Shown here in pieces: positions 1 through 4,128 of a stretch of DNA of 4,128 bases (position 1 is its first letter; every line of letters begins with the position of its first letter). The notes under the pieces are model-generated. The model was not told the origin of the DNA and searched no databases. It was given only the letters and a program-made list of their open reading frames with translations. This DNA comes from Naegleria gruberi (taxonomy: Eukaryota), in the NCBI GenBank assembly GCA_000004985.1, contig GG739197.1, one strand, 5' to 3'. Both the position numbers and the translations under genes were made by a program.

Positions 1-209
1 TAATACTTTTTACATGTGGAAAGTGTTCTATCATCATGCTCCTCTCCGACGTGATAACTAGCCGTACCACAAGAATCAACAATGAAATCAACTTTTGCCT
101 TCTTTTCCTTTATCAAAGCCAACATGACAATCTCTGCCATTGGTGACCGACAAATATTTCCGAGACAAACAAAACATACAGAACAATTCTTCCCTGATTG
201 AGCTGACAT
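1..209 (-). CDS. LTP1: Low-molecular-weight phosphotyrosine protein phosphatase (LMW-PTP), N-terminal 69 codons; the rest of the gene runs off the left edge of the window
   Basis: Hand translation of the reverse complement from ATG at 207-209 gives MSAQSGKNCSVCFVCLGNICRSPMAEIVMLALIKEKKAKVDFIVDSCGTASYHVGEEHDDRTLSTCKKY. It contains the LMW-PTP catalytic P-loop V-C-L-G-N-I-C-R-S (CX5R-S) and the downstream D-S-x-G-T-x-x-Y-H-x-G motif. It also has a yeast-like A-rich context before the ATG (caatacataaaaaATG on the minus strand). It is missing from the ORF track only because no stop codon falls inside the window. Confidence 0.85.
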   Translation of the reverse strand, partial: MSAQSGKNCSVCFVCLGNICRSPMAEIVMLALIKEKKAKVDFIVDSCGTASYHVGEEHDDRTLSTCKKY

Positions 210-337
210 TTTTTATGTATTGTTTTTTCAATTTTCTTTGTTATATACAAAAGCAATTAGATAATATTGAAGGCAAGCCAAGTTTCGTCCTTTGCATTTT
301 GGATTTGTTTTGGAAATAGACATAGTTCGTTCCGTTA

Positions 338-358
338 GCATTGTTTTTGGCATTGTTT
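338..358 (-). promoter_or_regulatory. Direct repeat GCATTGTTT x2 (338-346 and 350-358): HMG-box / Rox1-type ATTGTT cores about 130-150 bp upstream of the LTP1-like ATG
   Basis: agcattgtttttggcattgtttaaag was read directly. YYYATTGTT is the core of the yeast Rox1/Rfg1 hypoxic-repressor site. The functional assignment is only an inference. Confidence 0.2.
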
Positions 359-480
359 AAAGAAATATAGAATAGTTTCAAAATCAAAATTTCACTCTCA
401 TTTATATTATATACAATCTTAGTATCTTTGAGTTTACAATTAATACTCTTAAATTACAATTTCAAAGCTGGATATCAAAA

Positions 481-795
481 TTATTGAATGGAACATTCCT
501 TCTTTTCACCTTCCTGAGGAGCAGTCTCTGATGAGGCTGCAGCAACATCGGATGCACCCTCAAACTCTCCAACTATATACTTTTGCATGTCACTCTTAGC
601 ACTACTTCCATGACCAGCATCATTGAAGGCCTTTGTGCCATCTTTACCAGCCCATTCGAGAATGACATCTTCACCACCCGGATGTTCATCCTTATACGTT
701 CCAAAGGCTACAACCTTTCCCGAGATAATAATCCAAGGATCTTGATGATTTGGACCATGTTCTTCAACTTCAGAGAGTGCAATGTTTCTCACCAT
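481..795 (-). CDS. Cytochrome b5-like heme-binding protein, 104 aa, soluble form with an acidic C-terminal tail and no hydrophobic membrane anchor
   Basis: ATG at 793-795 (minus strand) and TAA at 481-483. The product is MVRNIALSEVEEHGPNHQDPWIIISGKVVAFGTYKDEHPGGEDVILEWAGKDGTKAFNDAGHGSSA... It carries the cytochrome b5 signature HPGGE plus the second axial His in AGHG. It is close to the yeast CYB5 N-terminal pattern (EVxEHNGP..WIII.gKVYDv..FkDEHPGG). The C-terminus GASDVAAASSETAPQEGEKKECSIQ is polar and lacks any transmembrane segment. The context before the ATG is A-rich. Confidence 0.85.
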   Translation of the reverse strand: MVRNIALSEVEEHGPNHQDPWIIISGKVVAFGTYKDEHPGGEDVILEWAGKDGTKAFNDAGHGSSAKSDMQKYIVGEFEGASDVAAASSETAPQEGEKKECSIQ

Positions 796-992
796 TTTGT
801 ATGTTTCTATATTATTGTTGTTTTGTTTTTTTCAAATTGTTGTTTTACTGTCTTGTATCCAAAGCTGACAAATTTATTCTCCAAATAGATCTAAATGATG
901 AGGAGTATTGGGAGAATGGGGTAATATTGGATTCTGAATATGTACAAATGGGAGTTTTTTACTGGGAATAAGGACGTTAGAGATTCGAATCT

Positions 993-999
993 ATATAAT
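993..999 (-). promoter_or_regulatory. Candidate TATA box (TATATAA) about 200 bp upstream of the cytochrome b5 ATG
   Basis: ctatataatt is at 991-1000 and is the only canonical TATAWAW in the 796-1100 interval. The assignment rests on position alone. Confidence 0.2.
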
Positions 1000-1291
1000 T
1001 ATGTTGAAAATAATTACTGCTCTGATGGAATGGATAATGCATGTTATGAATTGATTAATAAATAGAAGAAGTTGTAATACAAGTACCAGAACAAACACTT
1101 GAATCTAAAGAGGACTCTCAAGTAAAGAAGCAAGGAAGAAAACGAAAGAATATATGAACTAACATTGTAAATAAACAATGAGTTGCTCTTTCGTCCTTTC
1201 TTGGAAAGGTTGGTTAAGTATTCAGAGTTCTTTAAAGATCTAAAACAGTCAGTAAAAGATGTTTAAAAATTAATACTTTTATTAATATCGT

Positions 1292-2101
1292 TCAATGTAG
1301 ATTTTCAAGTATCTCAAATAAAATCACTAAATTTGATCTGACTGAGAAATGCGGTATGTGGTTGCCAAATTTTTTGTAATAACTTGGCGGATTTTTCATT
1401 ATCCTTCTTTGGACATAAAATATAGTCTTCATTGAGTTCAAAGTGAGTCTCGTGCTTAACATATGTTCTGCAACTTCATTGATCTTCAACGTCTTGTCTT
1501 TCATACTTATAGCTCCGTTCAGAGATTCTCTAATATATTTTGATTCTTTGTTATTATAGTTGTTTTCCAAATGTGCAACAAGGTTTGTTTTAAATATCTC
1601 AGAACTATAATGAGTGTAAACAACTAAAATATCTTCTGGTTCAACAACTCCCATAATTAAATATCTAAAAGCTCTAGTTTGGGTATAGAACTCTGACTTA
1701 AATTTTGATTTGGCCTTCAGTGCCACACTTCTTTTATGTACAGCTGCAATTTGGACTTTATGGCTATTGTCATATTTAAACTCCCATCTCTTTGATATTT
1801 CATCAGTAGTGGTTCCAATGTATCTTAGAACTTCACCACCGAATCTAACAAAAGCACAGTAAATTATGTCATTACTCTTGTGCATATCAATTGCTTTTGC
1901 AAGTAAATTGAAATCCTTAATAATATTCTTGGGTTCTCGTTTCTCTTTTAACCAAGAAAACAATGGATTTGTAGTGGTGTTCAATTCACCAAGAGATTTG
2001 ATGAGGATGTTCAATTCTGGTTTGTTATCTTGACAATCCTTCGTCACTTTGTCAAAAGCAATTACTTTATCAGGATCCACTAATCTTGTAACTGATCGCA
2101 T
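1292..2101 (-). CDS. GIY-YIG superfamily nuclease-domain protein (T5orf172/MUG113-like core), 269 aa from the first in-frame ATG at 2099-2101. The ORF track extends to 2245 only because codon 1 there is TTG, which is not a eukaryotic start.
   Basis: This is a long uninterrupted minus-strand ORF with a TAA stop at 1292-1294. Track residues 126-230 (nt ~1556-1870) read DIIYCAFVRFGGEVLRYIGTTTDEISKRWEFKYDNSH...EPEDILVVYTHYSSEIFKTNLVAHLENNYN. That gives Tyr of 'IIY', then 12 residues, then 'YIG-T-T', then 'KRW' seven residues later, then an aromatic residue, then a Glu about 60 residues on and an Asn-rich 'ENNYN'. This is the spacing and residue set of the GIY-YIG catalytic core. Compare I-TevI, recalled from memory: GIYQIKNTLNNKVYVGSAKDFEKRWKRH ... 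ERENFWIKELNS..NGYN. The (K/R)-I-G-x-T-x-x-x-x-x-R-x-x-E shape is typical of the T5orf172/MUG113 subfamily that is widespread in fungi. No HMM or BLAST could be run. Confidence 0.5.
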   Translation of the reverse strand: MRSVTRLVDPDKVIAFDKVTKDCQDNKPELNILIKSLGELNTTTNPLFSWLKEKREPKNIIKDFNLLAKAIDMHKSNDIIYCAFVRFGGEVLRYIGTTTDEISKRWEFKYDNSHKVQIAAVHKRSVALKAKSKFKSEFYTQTRAFRYLIMGVVEPEDILVVYTHYSSEIFKTNLVAHLENNYNNKESKYIRESLNGAISMKDKTLKINEVAEHMLSTRLTLNSMKTIFYVQRRIMKNPPSYYKKFGNHIPHFSVRSNLVILFEILENLH

Positions 2102-2511
2102 GTAGTTCCCTCCTTTAATGGGATTCTTCTTGTAATGAATTGAGATGTTCTTCGTCAGATTTGAGAGTGAACTAGTATTGTTTAGAGAAAAAAAATGTCC
2201 CTTCTCCACGCCAAATAGACCAATTGAAGAACACCAACAAAGCAACCGAATATTTGCAAATGGCCAAGGTAAAAACTTTTCTATAGAATTTACATTTAAT
2301 GATGAATATACCCGCTAAATTATTTTGATGATAATTTTAACAATTTTTTCGTCAAATTTTAACGTATCAGATTGCAAAATTATGAAATAAAGTTTATTGA
2401 AAAATGTTAAAAATTGATGCTTAAAGCATAATAAAATCGTCAACAAGTGTTGGGAGAAAAATTCCAAATTAACGCGCAATTGACGTCAAGAATTATCGTC
2501 AATTCTTAATG

Positions 2512-2551
2512 ATTTATTATCAATTTTTGACGTCAAAAATTGATAATAAAT
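2512..2551. repeat. Perfect 40-bp palindrome (inverted repeat with no spacer) centred on the CRE/ATF octamer TGACGTCA (AatII site GACGTC)
   Basis: ATTTATTATCAATTTTTGAC|GTCAAAAATTGATAATAAAT was verified base by base. Position 2532+k is the complement of 2531-k for k=0..19, and the first mismatch is at k=20 (2511 g / 2552 t). Each arm contains AAAATTGATAATAAAT, which has GATAA and ATTGAT cores. Confidence 0.9.
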
Positions 2552-2571
2552 TGATAATGTTTTGTATCAAA

Positions 2572-2593
2572 TATTGATGAAAAAACATCAATA
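2572..2593. repeat. Hairpin-forming inverted repeat: 8-bp stem TATTGATG/CATCAATA around an A6 loop
   Basis: 2572-2579 tattgatg and 2586-2593 catcaata are exact reverse complements, with a loop aaaaaa at 2580-2585. It shares the ATTGAT core with the 40-bp palindrome arms. Confidence 0.8.
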
Positions 2594-2622
2594 ATTACGT
2601 CAAAAAATTCATAATAATTATT

Positions 2623-2635
2623 GTCAATTATTGAC
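2623..2635. repeat. 13-bp palindrome GTCAAT-t-ATTGAC
   Basis: 2623-2635 gtcaattattgac: the arms GTCAAT and ATTGAC are reverse complements around a single central T. It again combines the GTCAA and ATTGA cores seen throughout 2349-2640. Confidence 0.8.
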
Positions 2636-2970
2636 TAAATTCCAGCAATTATTTACTCCAAAATCTTGTAAAATTTCCAAGTTCCAAACTCATCTATTAT
2701 TAGATCCACTTCCATTCCAAATTTCAAACCGAAAAAAATATCTACACTCCTCATCCTCACTCCAACTGATGAAATATCACTCACCTCTTCAGTTACATTC
2801 AAAATTAATGATAATAAATCAAAATTACTTACATTGTTTTCTGTTCAAAATCTGTTGCTTGCATATAAATCGTGCTGTTTAGCACAAATTGAATTATAAC
2901 AAATTACCTAATTTCTTGTGATGAATAATTTTGATGATCCGTAGCAGGTAAAATCATATAATATAAAAAT

Positions 2971-3069
2971 AATACAACAAACCAATTTCGAAGAATAAAA
3001 TCTTTATAAATCCAACTAACAATAATTAAAAAATTAAGAAATTAAGAAATTTAAATACAACAAACCAAT
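2971..3069. repeat. 16-bp direct repeat AATACAACAAACCAAT present twice (2971-2986 and 3054-3069), each copy containing a CCAAT box
   Basis: An exact 16/16 match was read directly from the sequence, with 83 bp between starts. It lies in an A/C-rich tract that has no ORF. Confidence 0.7.
3031..3051. repeat. Short tandem repeat, 8-bp unit (ATTAAGAA), about 2.6 copies
   Basis: aaattaagaaattaagaaatt shows period-8 identity from 3031 to 3051, checked position by position. Confidence 0.6.
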
Positions 3070-3276
3070 AAACAATAAACTCCGCCAACAATTATTGTAT
3101 TAACAAATTAATGATACTATTCAATATTTAATGAGTGATCACTGATGATTTTAAATTGTAGTAAAAATAATGTTGTAGTACTAACCGACAGTTTTGTATG
3201 ATATGATGAGGGAGTTAATGTGTAGACATTTTTTTATTAAAAATAATTTCCGATTTAGTAACCCAACATTTTACAA

Positions 3277-3465
3277 TCAACATTCATCATCACTCATATC
3301 ATCAGTGGAATCCTCTTCAATGGTTTCTTCCTCACAAGAGGATGATCCAGAATCATTGTTTTCCTCTCTTTCTTTTCTCTTTTTTGAGGTGGTCTCCTCA
3401 AGTTCTGTCTTCTTCTTCTTCTTTACTGATTCATTTTGTTTTGCACCCTTCTGCAAATTCTGCAT
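3277..3465 (-). CDS. Possible small (62 aa) highly charged Lys/Glu/Ser/Asp-rich protein; it could equally be a low-complexity artefact
   Basis: It has a true ATG at 3463-3465 with caaaaATG context and TGA at 3277-3279. The product is MQNLQKGAKQNESVKKKKKTELEETTSKKRKEREENNDSGSSSCEEETIEEDSTDDMSDDEC, with a basic NLS-like stretch followed by an acidic Ser/Asp tail (CK2-like sites). It fully overlaps a plus-strand Ser-rich ORF (3194-3481) that looks less protein-like. Confidence 0.25.
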   Translation of the reverse strand: MQNLQKGAKQNESVKKKKKTELEETTSKKRKEREENNDSGSSSCEEETIEEDSTDDMSDDEC

Positions 3466-3588
3466 TTTTGAAACACTATAATGATTTAGTTGATGAGAAT
3501 GAAAGAATTAAGAAAGAATTGGCTAGATATAAACAGGCAGTCAAAATATGAATGAAATGATTAATCAAATGGTGAGCTGTTTAGATGA

Positions 3589-4117
3589 GTATCAAGATGT
3601 CTTTGCATAGGGAGACTCTATTGTGCATCAACCAAAGAAAATTCAAAATCTTTGAAACAAACTCGATACTCAATAAGAATACACCCTAAATATGATACAA
3701 TTAATCTTGCACCCTTTAGAGATATAGAGTATTGGAAAAATCACATTCAAAAAGGGAATTTTGATCAAGGGTTGAAATCAATTTCACCAATTTTGGATCA
3801 AGATTGGAATCCATCACCATCAGATATTTGTTGCTATGATTCAATGCATGTATTATATGAAGGAGTTTTCCAAGAAATGATGAAAATGATCCCTATTCAA
3901 TACTGGGAAAGATTTGACATTGTTTCTGAAACAAAAGTATCCATCATTCCTTCACAAGCATCCTAGAAAGACCACAAATGGCCAGATTTTGAACAGTCTA
4001 AAGGCAATTGAAATTTACATGATCTGTCATTATTATTTAGAGCTGTTTACGCATATCGAAGGATTTAAGGAAATAGAATCAAAGGTTGAAATATTCATAG
4101 ATTGCCTCTATAATTGA
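3589..4117 (+). pseudogene. Decayed transposase-like gene, possibly Transposase_21 / Tnp2 (CACTA, EnSpm, KDZ/Plavaka-type) family. It is an internal fragment with no ATG start, at least one frameshift near 3890-3966, and continues past the window end.
   Basis: Frame 1 is open from 3589 with no start codon; the track ORF at 3652 begins on TTG. It reads ...APFRDIEYWKNHIQKGNF...DICCYDSMHVLYEGVFQEMMKMI... Frame 2 is open from 3890 and reads ...SFLHKHPRKTTNGQILNSLKAIEIYMICHYYLELF... up to TGA at 4118. The EYWK ... D-x-M-H-x-x-x-E-G-V-x-x-x-M segment resembles the conserved (E)LPYWK ... LDVMHIEKNV block of Tnp2-family transposases as I recall it. The spacing differs and nothing was searched. Confidence 0.3.
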
Positions 4118-4128
4118 TAAGCTGACAG

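What the first reader, a model, noticed from the sequence alone, without database searches (positions are those of the whole stretch)
2349..2640. Dense, oriented array of CGTCAA / TGACGTCA / ATTGAT(A/G) motifs forming nested hairpins
There are six CGTCAA motifs in ~260 bp, all in one orientation at 2349, 2447, 2481, 2496, 2528 and 2596. Two are full TGACGTCA octamers and one is TTACGTCA. There are also four GATAA cores and three separate hairpin or palindromic units. This is far denser and more ordered than a typical yeast intergenic promoter. It resembles iterons or a multi-site enhancer, for example Sko1/Aca-type bZIP sites plus GATA-factor sites, driving the divergently placed nuclease ORF. 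Alternatively it could be a cis-acting structural element for replication or mobility.
Basis: seen in the sequence. Interest (0 to 1): 0.5.

Follow-up and report, generated by a model that had tools for sequence, protein, structure and literature searches.

The report
Naegleria TTGACG repeat and palindrome cluster
A 300-base stretch between genes of the amoeba Naegleria gruberi (not a yeast) holds far more copies of the short word TTGACG/CGTCAA and far more palindromes than chance allows. It most likely is the protein-binding end or control region of a repeated, probably mobile, element, which makes it real but fairly ordinary.

Summary
CGTCAA occurs 8 times (both strands), only within 2350-2603, against 0.94 expected. 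There are two TGACGTCA octamers, one TTACGTCA, a perfect 40-nt palindrome (2512-2551), several short hairpins and a 47-bp tandem duplication. "All in one orientation" is overstated: only four sites are non-palindromic. The GATAA cores lie inside a wider word, TTGAYR(ATAA), with 17 sites in 2325-2627.

The context was misread. The window is a complete 4128-bp Naegleria gruberi scaffold, not yeast. The neighbouring ORF is an orphan with no detectable nuclease homology.

The right end of the window (3480-4128) is a frameshifted copy of a Naegleria-specific multi-copy orphan gene. A second, Naegleria-like locus (L014) carries another copy of that gene. On its far side L014 has a smaller TTGACG cluster plus the same 16-nt word (AAAATTTCCAAGTTCC) and an inverted CCCGCTAAA, in mirrored order.

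Best reading (confidence about 0.42): binding-site arrays at the ends of a repeated, transposon-like element. They would work like the subterminal hexamers of Ac/Ds.

Main rival (0.25): a CRE/half-CRE promoter cluster for the outward-facing gene.

No tool here holds the N. gruberi genome, so copy number and element boundaries are untested. Interest is low to moderate.

The parts
2325..2635 (.). Whole cluster: 17 TTGAYR sites (8 TTGACG, 4 TTGATG, 4 TTGATA, 1 TTGACA) with palindromes and hairpins. GC is about 21-26%.
   Evidence: 17 of the window's 31 TTGAYR sites fall in 7% of its length. One search gives the composition.
2350..2355 (+). Single CGTCAA site, within TTTTCGTCAAA. The same 11-mer occurs inverted in L014 at 1961-1971.
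2438..2443 (+). Single CGTCAA site, within AAAATCGTCAA. The same 11-mer occurs in L014 at 1983-1993.
2479..2577 (.). 47-bp tandem repeat, 2.1 copies, 75% matches. Each unit starts with (A/T)TTGACGTCAA.
   Evidence: Tandem Repeats Finder, score 112.
2480..2489 (.). Palindrome TTGACGTCAA, a full CRE-type octamer (TGACGTCA at 2481-2488).
2488..2507 (.). Hairpin AAGAATT-ATCGTC-AATTCTT. The CGTCAA site at 2497 spans its loop and 3' arm.
2512..2551 (.). Perfect 40-nt palindrome ATTTATTATCAATTTTTGAC|GTCAAAAATTGATAATAAAT, centred on TGACGTCA (2528-2535) and flanked by TTGATAATAA half-sites.
   Evidence: I3, 100% complementary, no spacer. One search shows it as the dominant stem in the MFE and centroid structures.
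2551..2592 (.). Two hairpins: TTGATA-ATGTTTTG-TATCAA (2551-2570) and ATTGATG-AAAAAA-CATCAAT (2573-2592). The TTGATG sites may be CpG-decayed TTGACG (inference).
2595..2603 (+). TTACGTCAA, a near-CRE site.
2623..2635 (.). Palindrome GTCAAT-T-ATTGAC.
2670..2685 (+). 16-nt word AAAAATTTCCAAGTTCC-type match (AAAATTTCCAAGTTCC), shared exactly with L014 1919-1934. In both loci it lies 30-70 nt from the TTGACG cluster, on the side facing the repeat gene.
2311..2319 (+). CCCGCTAAA on the outer side of the cluster. The same 9-mer occurs inverted on the outer side of the L014 cluster (2021-2029). It is a candidate terminal word only.
   Evidence: My own estimate of chance is about 0.06.
3480..4128 (+). 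Decayed copy (stops and at least one frameshift) of a Naegleria-specific multi-copy orphan gene (family of EFC41272, EFC49894, EFC35460 and EFC49422). It runs off the end of the contig.
   Evidence: Bases 3948-4128 are 97% identical to L014 1133-1315.
1292..2101 (-). Orphan ORF EFC35481 (269 aa). Its ATG lies 250-500 bp from the cluster, and it faces away from it.

Best explanation
The cluster is a dense array of binding sites for one sequence-specific, probably dimeric, DNA-binding protein that recognises TTGAC(G), and it belongs to a repeated, transposon-like element of Naegleria gruberi.

In this model the element's left end lies near 2311-2325. The TTGACG array (2325-2635) is its subterminal repeat region. 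The 16-nt word at 2670 lies further inward. The element's own gene, decayed in this copy, follows at 3480-4128 and beyond.

The arrays would work like the subterminal hexamers of Ac/Ds or the TnpA sites of En/Spm. A protein encoded by the element or the host binds the many sites cooperatively. Head-to-head pairs such as TTGACGTCAA take a dimer. The two ends, which carry the same words in mirrored order, are brought together for cutting, and the same region may also act as the element's promoter.

Shown: the non-random array, its internal tandem and palindromic structure, the neighbouring multi-copy decayed gene, and a second locus with the same words on the other side of another copy of that gene.

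Inferred: that a protein binds, that these are element ends, and that the element is or was mobile.
For: - The array is real and highly non-random.
- Its make-up is what subterminal regions of DNA transposons look like: one short word in both orientations, head-to-head pairs, a 47-bp internal duplication and AT-rich surroundings. Ac carries many AAACGG hexamers in its terminal 200 bp that bind the transposase cooperatively (PMC3260210).
- The window ends inside a repeat. Region 3480-4128 is a frameshifted copy of an orphan gene present on at least four other N. gruberi scaffolds (508 kb, 1 Mb, 712 kb and 3.6 kb), partly as truncated gene models.
- L014 is a Naegleria-like metagenome contig. 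It holds another copy of this gene, 5'-truncated and abutting a truncated short-chain dehydrogenase gene.
- 90-215 bp beyond that gene's stop codon there are TTGACG x3 and CGTCAA x1. All four CGTCAA sites of the 4.6-kb contig fall in those 125 bp.
- L014 also carries the exact 16-mer AAAATTTCCAAGTTCC, the 11-mers TTTTCGTCAAA and AAAATCGTCAA, and an inverted CCCGCTAAA.
- The order of the words is mirrored about the repeat gene. Window: CCCGCTAAA, cluster, 16-mer, gene. L014: gene, 16-mer, cluster, TTTAGCGGG.
- None of the other intergenic regions of the window or L014 has the cluster.
Against: - No terminal inverted repeat longer than 9 nt and no target-site duplication could be shown. Gapped alignments of the two regions do not beat shuffles in either orientation. 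The word chains beat shuffles in both orientations, so orientation is not established.
- The associated gene has no detectable transposase homology. It gives no relevant Pfam hit (none for P0002; only GAF_NLP at E 0.018 for P0003) and has no relatives outside Naegleria. By eye it lacks the C(2)C and H(3-4)H motifs that define CMC-type transposases (criterion from PMC12730594).
- One TTGACGATTT in L014 (2080) lies beyond the candidate terminal word, inside the next ORF.
- L014 was fetched because it carries the repeat gene, which is a selection bias.
- The copy number of the array itself is unknown, because the N. gruberi genome could not be searched.
Confidence: 0.42

Rival explanations
1. Host promoter or enhancer. 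The array is a homotypic cluster of CRE (TGACGTCA) and half-CRE (CGTCA) sites bound by a bZIP-type or other dimeric transcription factor. It would drive the outward-facing gene: the orphan ORF with its ATG at 2101 in the window, and the F-box ORF with its ATG at L014:2053.
For: - There are two perfect CRE octamers, one TTACGTCA and three half-sites 250-500 bp upstream of the ORF's ATG.
- In L014 the smaller cluster lies 60-91 bp upstream of an ATG that opens a long ORF, and TTTAGCGGG lies 24-32 bp upstream.
- The mirrored word order fits '16-mer, cluster, TTTAGCGGG, gene' in both loci.
- Tandem TGACG sites about 14 bp apart recall plant as-1 elements (from memory).
Against: - Seventeen sites, a perfect 40-nt palindrome and a 47-bp duplication are unusual for a promoter.
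- Two unrelated genes would have to share three different words in the same order, and each would have to sit next to a copy of the same repeat gene by coincidence.
- The distance from TTTAGCGGG to the ATG differs: 210 nt against 24 nt.
- There is no array upstream of the ORF's only homologue.
- The expanded transcription-factor family reported for Naegleria is the C6 zinc finger, not bZIP (PMC3537659).
- No transcript data are available here.
Confidence: 0.25
2. Non-functional AT-rich palindromic minisatellite. Replication slippage and hairpin-mediated duplication of a 47-bp unit that happened to contain TTGACGTCAA would have produced the array, with no binding protein involved.
For: - A 47-bp period with 2.1 copies at 75% identity.
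- The locally lowest GC of the window.
- The TTGATG and TTGACA variants look like CpG decay of TTGACG (inference).
Against: - CGTCAA sites at 2350, 2438 and 2598 lie outside the tandem array, in different flanking sequence.
- The same words recur at an independent locus.
- The 40-nt palindrome is perfect although the neighbouring units have diverged by 25%.
Confidence: 0.12
3. Replication origin or iteron array, or another chromosomal structural element such as a centromere-associated sequence.
For: Repeated words, palindromes and an AT-rich, easily unwound setting.
Against: - There are no regularly spaced direct iterons of one length and no initiator gene nearby.
- There is no similarity to any phage or plasmid record, and no match to the core of the array in prokaryotic genome contigs.
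- Nothing is known that links such words to Naegleria origins, and the idea is not testable here.
Confidence: 0.05

Closest known systems
Subterminal hexamer repeats of the maize hAT element Ac/Ds (AAACGG, bound cooperatively by the Ac transposase)
   Same: A 6-nt CpG-containing word repeated many times in both orientations within a few hundred bp, next to the element's gene (PMC3260210). Decayed and internally deleted copies are common in that family too.
   Different: No 11-bp TIR or 8-bp target duplication is shown here. The associated protein is an orphan with no hAT (or any other) transposase signature. The word is different and often forms perfect head-to-head palindromes.
En/Spm (CACTA) subterminal 12-bp TnpA-binding motifs (from memory)
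   Same: Motifs in direct and inverted orientation, head-to-head pairs bound by dimers, a 5' array that doubles as a promoter region, and asymmetry between the two ends (a large array at one end, a small one at the other).
   Different: There are no CACTA termini. The neighbouring protein lacks the C(2)C / H(3-4)H motifs that define the CMC clade (criterion from PMC12730594) and gives no Transposase_21 or DUF4218 hit.
CRE / half-CRE clusters bound by ATF/CREB-type bZIP factors, and tandem TGACG as-1 elements of plants (from memory)
   Same: Exact TGACGTCA octamers, a TTACGTCA variant and CGTCA half-sites, in a promoter-distance position upstream of an ORF.
   Different: The site number and the long perfect palindrome exceed usual promoters. 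Half of the sites are TTGATR or TTGACA, which are not bZIP sites. No factor is known in Naegleria.
Iterons of plasmid and viral replication origins
   Same: Clustered repeats next to AT-rich DNA, with strong hairpin potential.
   Different: Spacing and orientation are irregular, only one 47-bp duplication is present, there is no initiator gene, and the context is a eukaryotic chromosome.

Membership tests
Subterminal repeat region of a cut-and-paste DNA transposon | One short word repeated many times, in both orientations, within a few hundred bp | tested here: met
   17 TTGAYR sites and 8 TTGACG sites in 2325-2627..
Subterminal repeat region of a cut-and-paste DNA transposon | Lies next to a defined element terminus with terminal inverted repeats and a target-site duplication | tested here: inconclusive
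   Only a 9-nt inverted word, CCCGCTAAA (window 2311, L014 2021-2029). The two ends come from different copies, so no TSD can be read. A 25-nt, 72% inverted pair (2325-2349 / 2603-2627, I9) flanked by TTATT is explained by the motif content itself.
Subterminal repeat region of a cut-and-paste DNA transposon | The same word clustered at the opposite end of the element, in mirrored arrangement | tested here: inconclusive
   L014 has TTGACG x3 and CGTCAA x1 downstream of another copy of the gene, with the 16-mer and CCCGCTAAA in mirrored order. This rests on one partial copy and short words, and alignment scores do not beat shuffles.
Subterminal repeat region of a cut-and-paste DNA transposon | The element encodes a recognisable transposase | tested here: not met
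   P0002, P0003 and the window fragment give no transposase Pfam hit at E up to 10. The AF2 model is poor and gives no significant fold match. By eye, C(2)C is absent and H(3-4)H is not kept (one search gives the criterion).
Subterminal repeat region of a cut-and-paste DNA transposon | Multi-copy in the genome, with decayed or truncated copies | tested here: inconclusive
   The gene is multi-copy: five N. gruberi records, including the frameshifted copy here and truncated models. The copy number of the array itself could not be tested, because N. gruberi DNA is not held by any tool.
CRE-type (bZIP) promoter or enhancer cluster | TGACGTCA palindromes or CGTCA half-sites, enriched over background | tested here: met
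CRE-type (bZIP) promoter or enhancer cluster | Upstream of a transcription unit, at promoter distance | tested here: inconclusive
   The cluster lies 250-500 bp from the ATG at 2101. In L014 it lies 60-91 bp from the ATG at 2053. No transcript or transcription-start data are available.
CRE-type (bZIP) promoter or enhancer cluster | Conserved upstream of orthologous genes | tested here: not met
   The only homologue (P0004, 41% identity over 110 aa) has no such array in its 479-bp upstream region on L012/L013. This is a weak test, because the homologue is distant.
CRE-type (bZIP) promoter or enhancer cluster | Bound by a bZIP factor of the organism | not testable with these tools
   Needs EMSA, DAP-seq or ChIP.
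GATA-factor site cluster | Independent (A/T)GATA(A/G) sites | tested here: not met
   All four GATAA cores in 2349-2640 lie inside or directly abut a TTGAYR site, three of them as TTGAYRATAA.
Iteron-type replication origin | Several direct repeats of one length at regular spacing, beside an initiator gene | tested here: not met
   Only a 47-bp x 2.1 repeat at 75% identity. Orientations are mixed. There is no initiator gene and no phage or plasmid similarity.
The AF2 model has pLDDT 32. Only the by-eye motif IIYCAFV..RYIG..RW..SH..VEPEDI is conserved with P0004.

The most novel reading that the evidence does not exclude
The orphan protein family (EFC41272, EFC49422 and relatives) is the transposase or end-binding protein of a so far undescribed, Naegleria-restricted DNA transposon lineage. 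Its ends carry CpG-containing TTGACG (half-CRE) subterminal arrays and a 40-nt palindrome. Binding would be sensitive to the cytosine methylation that marks repeats in N. gruberi.
Probability: 0.2. Interest if true: 0.45.

Novelty: new member of a known kind. Interest (0 to 1): 0.3.

Why it matters
If the array marks the ends of a Naegleria-specific mobile element, it would give a handle on an unclassified repeat family in a deep-branching eukaryote whose transposons are mostly unannotated. It would also give a ready-made cis element (TTGACG sites plus a perfect palindrome) for testing DNA-binding by an orphan protein.

If it is instead a promoter module, it would be one of the first defined cis-regulatory words in Naegleria.

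Either way it is a local, organism-specific feature and not a new principle.

Tried and rejected
- **Yeast context:** rejected. The window is N. gruberi.
- **Giant-virus origin** (AAAATTGA words, AT-rich DNA, orphan genes): no viral relatives of either orphan protein. An 18-mer palindrome scan of viral contigs hit only unrelated phage sequences. The repeat-gene 45-mer is absent from viral contigs. L012, which carries the ORF's homologue, looks like an intron-poor eukaryote (F-box, WD40, DUF4116), not a virus.
- **Plasmid or phage iterons:** no similarity.
- **Structured RNA, tRNA or miRNA:** only a sub-threshold palindrome artefact (MIR8706, E 0.91) and no tRNA.
- **GIY-YIG nuclease for the ORF:** no support.
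- **CACTA/KDZ transposase for the repeat gene:** I recalled a resemblance (DxMH; H..GP..FxE..LK), but there is no relevant Pfam hit and the defining C(2)C and H(3-4)H motifs are not met.
- **Structure prediction:** both models are too poor to use (pLDDT 32 and 49). The Foldseek PDB search gave nothing significant.
- **Fetching more Naegleria DNA:** The metagenome protein scan found nothing. The metagenome pattern scan returned 120 unrelated loci. Prokaryotic genome scans returned nothing.
- **MITE reading of 2325-2627** (25-nt, 72% inverted arms plus TTATT flanks): considered, but the arms are made of the repeated word itself, so it carries no weight.

Full report
**1. The observation**

CGTCAA occurs on the + strand at 2350, 2438, 2484, 2497, 2531 and 2598. 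It occurs on the - strand at 2480 and 2527. That is 8 matches against 0.94 expected, and no shuffle reaches 8. All matches lie within 254 bp and there are none elsewhere in the 4128-bp window. Even when every 6-mer with at least three G/C is allowed to compete, a cluster of 8 in 260 bp beats all 300 dinucleotide shuffles, whose maximum is 5.

The two TGACGTCA octamers (2481, 2528) and the TTACGTCA (2595) are real.

The palindromes are more numerous than reported:
- a perfect 40-nt palindrome at 2512-2551
- ATGCTTAAAGCAT at 2417-2429
- hairpins at 2488-2507, 2551-2570 and 2573-2592
- GTCAAT-T-ATTGAC at 2623-2635

The DNA fold of 2400-2640 has z = -5.65. Hairpin seeds number 14, against 2.6 in shuffles and 0-3 in all other tiles. 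Tandem Repeats Finder finds a 47-bp unit x 2.1 at 2479-2577, and each unit starts with TTGACGTCAA.

**2. What the array is made of**

The common denominator is TTGAYR. Seventeen of the window's 31 sites fall in 2325-2627: 8 TTGACG, 4 TTGATG, 4 TTGATA and 1 TTGACA. Six sites extend to TTGAYRATAA, and these account for three of the four GATAA cores in the finding's interval. The fourth directly abuts a TTGATA site. The GATAA cores are therefore not a second class of site.

Orientation is mixed, 7 on + and 10 on -. Only four CGTCAA sites are non-palindromic, so 'all in one orientation' is not significant.

TTGATG and TTGACA differ from TTGACG by the changes expected from CpG decay. This is an inference. 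N. gruberi does methylate repeats, though without a CpG preference (PMC12344493).

**3. Context**

The window is not yeast. The ORF at 1292-2101 (-) is 100% identical to N. gruberi EFC35481, on a record of exactly 4128 bp.

To its left lie a cytochrome b5 gene (481-795, Pfam E 9e-18) and the 5' part of a low-molecular-weight tyrosine phosphatase gene (1-209).

The ORF is an orphan. An exhaustive HMMER search of 1.8 billion representative proteins found one relative (P0004, 41% identity over 110 aa). That relative sits on an intron-poor eukaryote-like metagenome contig with no array upstream of it. Nothing supports the 'nuclease' label.

**4. The right end of the window is a repeat**

Region 3480-4128 (+) carries coding-like fragments in three frames. 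They match two N. gruberi protein clusters:
- P0002, 94% identity
- P0003, which aligns with the window fragment from residue 10 (65% identity) and with P0002 at 56%

Cluster members sit on scaffolds of 508 kb, 1 Mb, 712 kb and 3.6 kb, several as truncated models. The window copy needs a frameshift near 3915 and has in-frame stops upstream, so it is a pseudogene that runs off the contig.

The family has no relatives outside Naegleria and no relevant Pfam domain. I recalled a resemblance to CACTA/KDZ transposases. It failed the motif criteria quoted in PMC12730594, so I do not file the family there.

**5. A second locus**

P0007, a member of the P0002 cluster, led to L014, a 4.6-kb Naegleria-like metagenome contig. 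L014 1133-1315 is 97% identical to window 3948-4128. There the gene copy is 5'-truncated and abuts a truncated dehydrogenase gene.

All four CGTCAA/TTGACG sites of L014 lie in 1962-2085, just beyond the gene's stop codon at 1869. The two regions share these exact words:
- AAAATTTCCAAGTTCC (16 nt)
- TTTTCGTCAAA
- AAAATCGTCAA
- TAATAAATTGA
- TTATTGACT
- CCCGCTAAA, inverted

Word chains beat shuffles (32 of 1000 shuffles reach the reverse-complement chain and 8 of 1000 the forward chain), but gapped alignments do not.

The order of the words is mirrored about the repeat gene. In the window it is CCCGCTAAA, cluster, 16-mer, gene. In L014 it is gene, 16-mer, cluster, TTTAGCGGG.

**6. Interpretation**

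The mirrored order on the two sides of copies of one repeated gene is what the two ends of a TIR-type element look like. The make-up of the array resembles the transposase-binding subterminal hexamers of Ac/Ds (PMC3260210). No other intergenic region of the window or L014 has the cluster. I therefore favour 'end or control region of a repeated, transposon-like element' at about 0.42.

The same mirrored order also fits promoters of the outward-facing genes: the ORF with its ATG at 2101, and the F-box ORF with its ATG at L014:2053, 60-91 bp from the cluster. The CRE-type promoter reading therefore stays at about 0.25. A passive palindromic minisatellite gets about 0.12 and an origin-type element about 0.05. 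The rest is unassigned.

The two leading readings are not exclusive, because transposon ends often carry the element's promoter.

**7. Limits**

No tool here holds the N. gruberi genome. Scans of metagenome, viral and prokaryotic collections gave nothing related. The following are all untested:
- the copy number of the array
- the true element boundaries
- target duplications
- transcription
- methylation
- protein binding

**8. Verdict**

This is a real, statistically striking binding-site and palindrome cluster. Most likely it is a new example of a known kind of cis element, attached to an uncharacterised Naegleria repeat. Interest is low to moderate (0.3).

Noticed in passing
window 1-4128: The window is an entire small scaffold of Naegleria gruberi (the record length equals the window length). 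Its left end cuts a low-molecular-weight tyrosine phosphatase gene, and its right end cuts a repeat-family pseudogene.
   Followed up: yes
window 3480-4128 (+): Frameshifted, stop-containing copy of a Naegleria-only multi-copy orphan gene (the EFC41272, EFC49894, EFC35460 and EFC49422 family). By eye it carries DSMHVLYEG and NFH..GPL..SAFIGEG..LSK motifs, but no known domain was detected.
   Followed up: partly
L014 1100-1140: In the Naegleria-like metagenome contig, the repeat-gene copy starts abruptly at 1133, directly against a short-chain dehydrogenase gene that lacks its N-terminal part. This is a rearrangement junction typical of repeats, or else a chimeric assembly.
   Followed up: no
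window 1292-2101 (-); L012 10001-10906: The orphan ORF and its single distant homologue share the block DI(I/L)YCAFV-x3-GE-x2-RYIG-x8-RW-x6-SH ... RYL(I/M)M-x2-VEPEDI-x-VVY. It looks GIY-YIG-like by eye but is not detected by any profile method.
   Followed up: partly
window 3277-3465 (-): A 62-aa ORF with an ATG start encodes a lysine-rich then acidic, serine-rich low-complexity peptide. It lies between the AT-rich spacer and the repeat pseudogene. It has no homologues on record and may or may not be a gene.
   Followed up: no
window 228-235, 2410-2417, 2520-2527, 2536-2543: The word AAAATTGA, which I remember as the Mimivirus early-promoter word, occurs four times. One copy lies 19 nt upstream of the phosphatase ATG. 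About 0.7 are expected from base composition. No other sign of viral origin was found.
   Followed up: partly
window 802-846: A 22-bp tandem repeat (x 2.0, 78% identity) lies just upstream of the cytochrome b5 start codon.
   Followed up: no
L016, L018, L022, L023 and about 25 other Ga0126343/Ga0126342 loci: A multi-copy repeat in one JGI sample set carries tandem sub-repeats ATTGAACCATTGACGTCAAAAGTGCAGCCCGCTGCAG, each with a CRE palindrome. Many copies sit at contig ends. It is unrelated in sequence to the window.
   Followed up: partly
L073 1-420; L131 1-170; L041 1810-1850; L027 2378-2433: Other metagenome contigs hold very dense TGACGTCA arrays, up to more than 20 sites in 400 bp, of unknown nature.
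   Followed up: no
P0003 residues 230-303: The only confidently modelled part of the repeat-family protein is a C-terminal small beta-barrel. It has weak, non-significant Tudor/KOW/SH3-like Foldseek matches.
   Followed up: no
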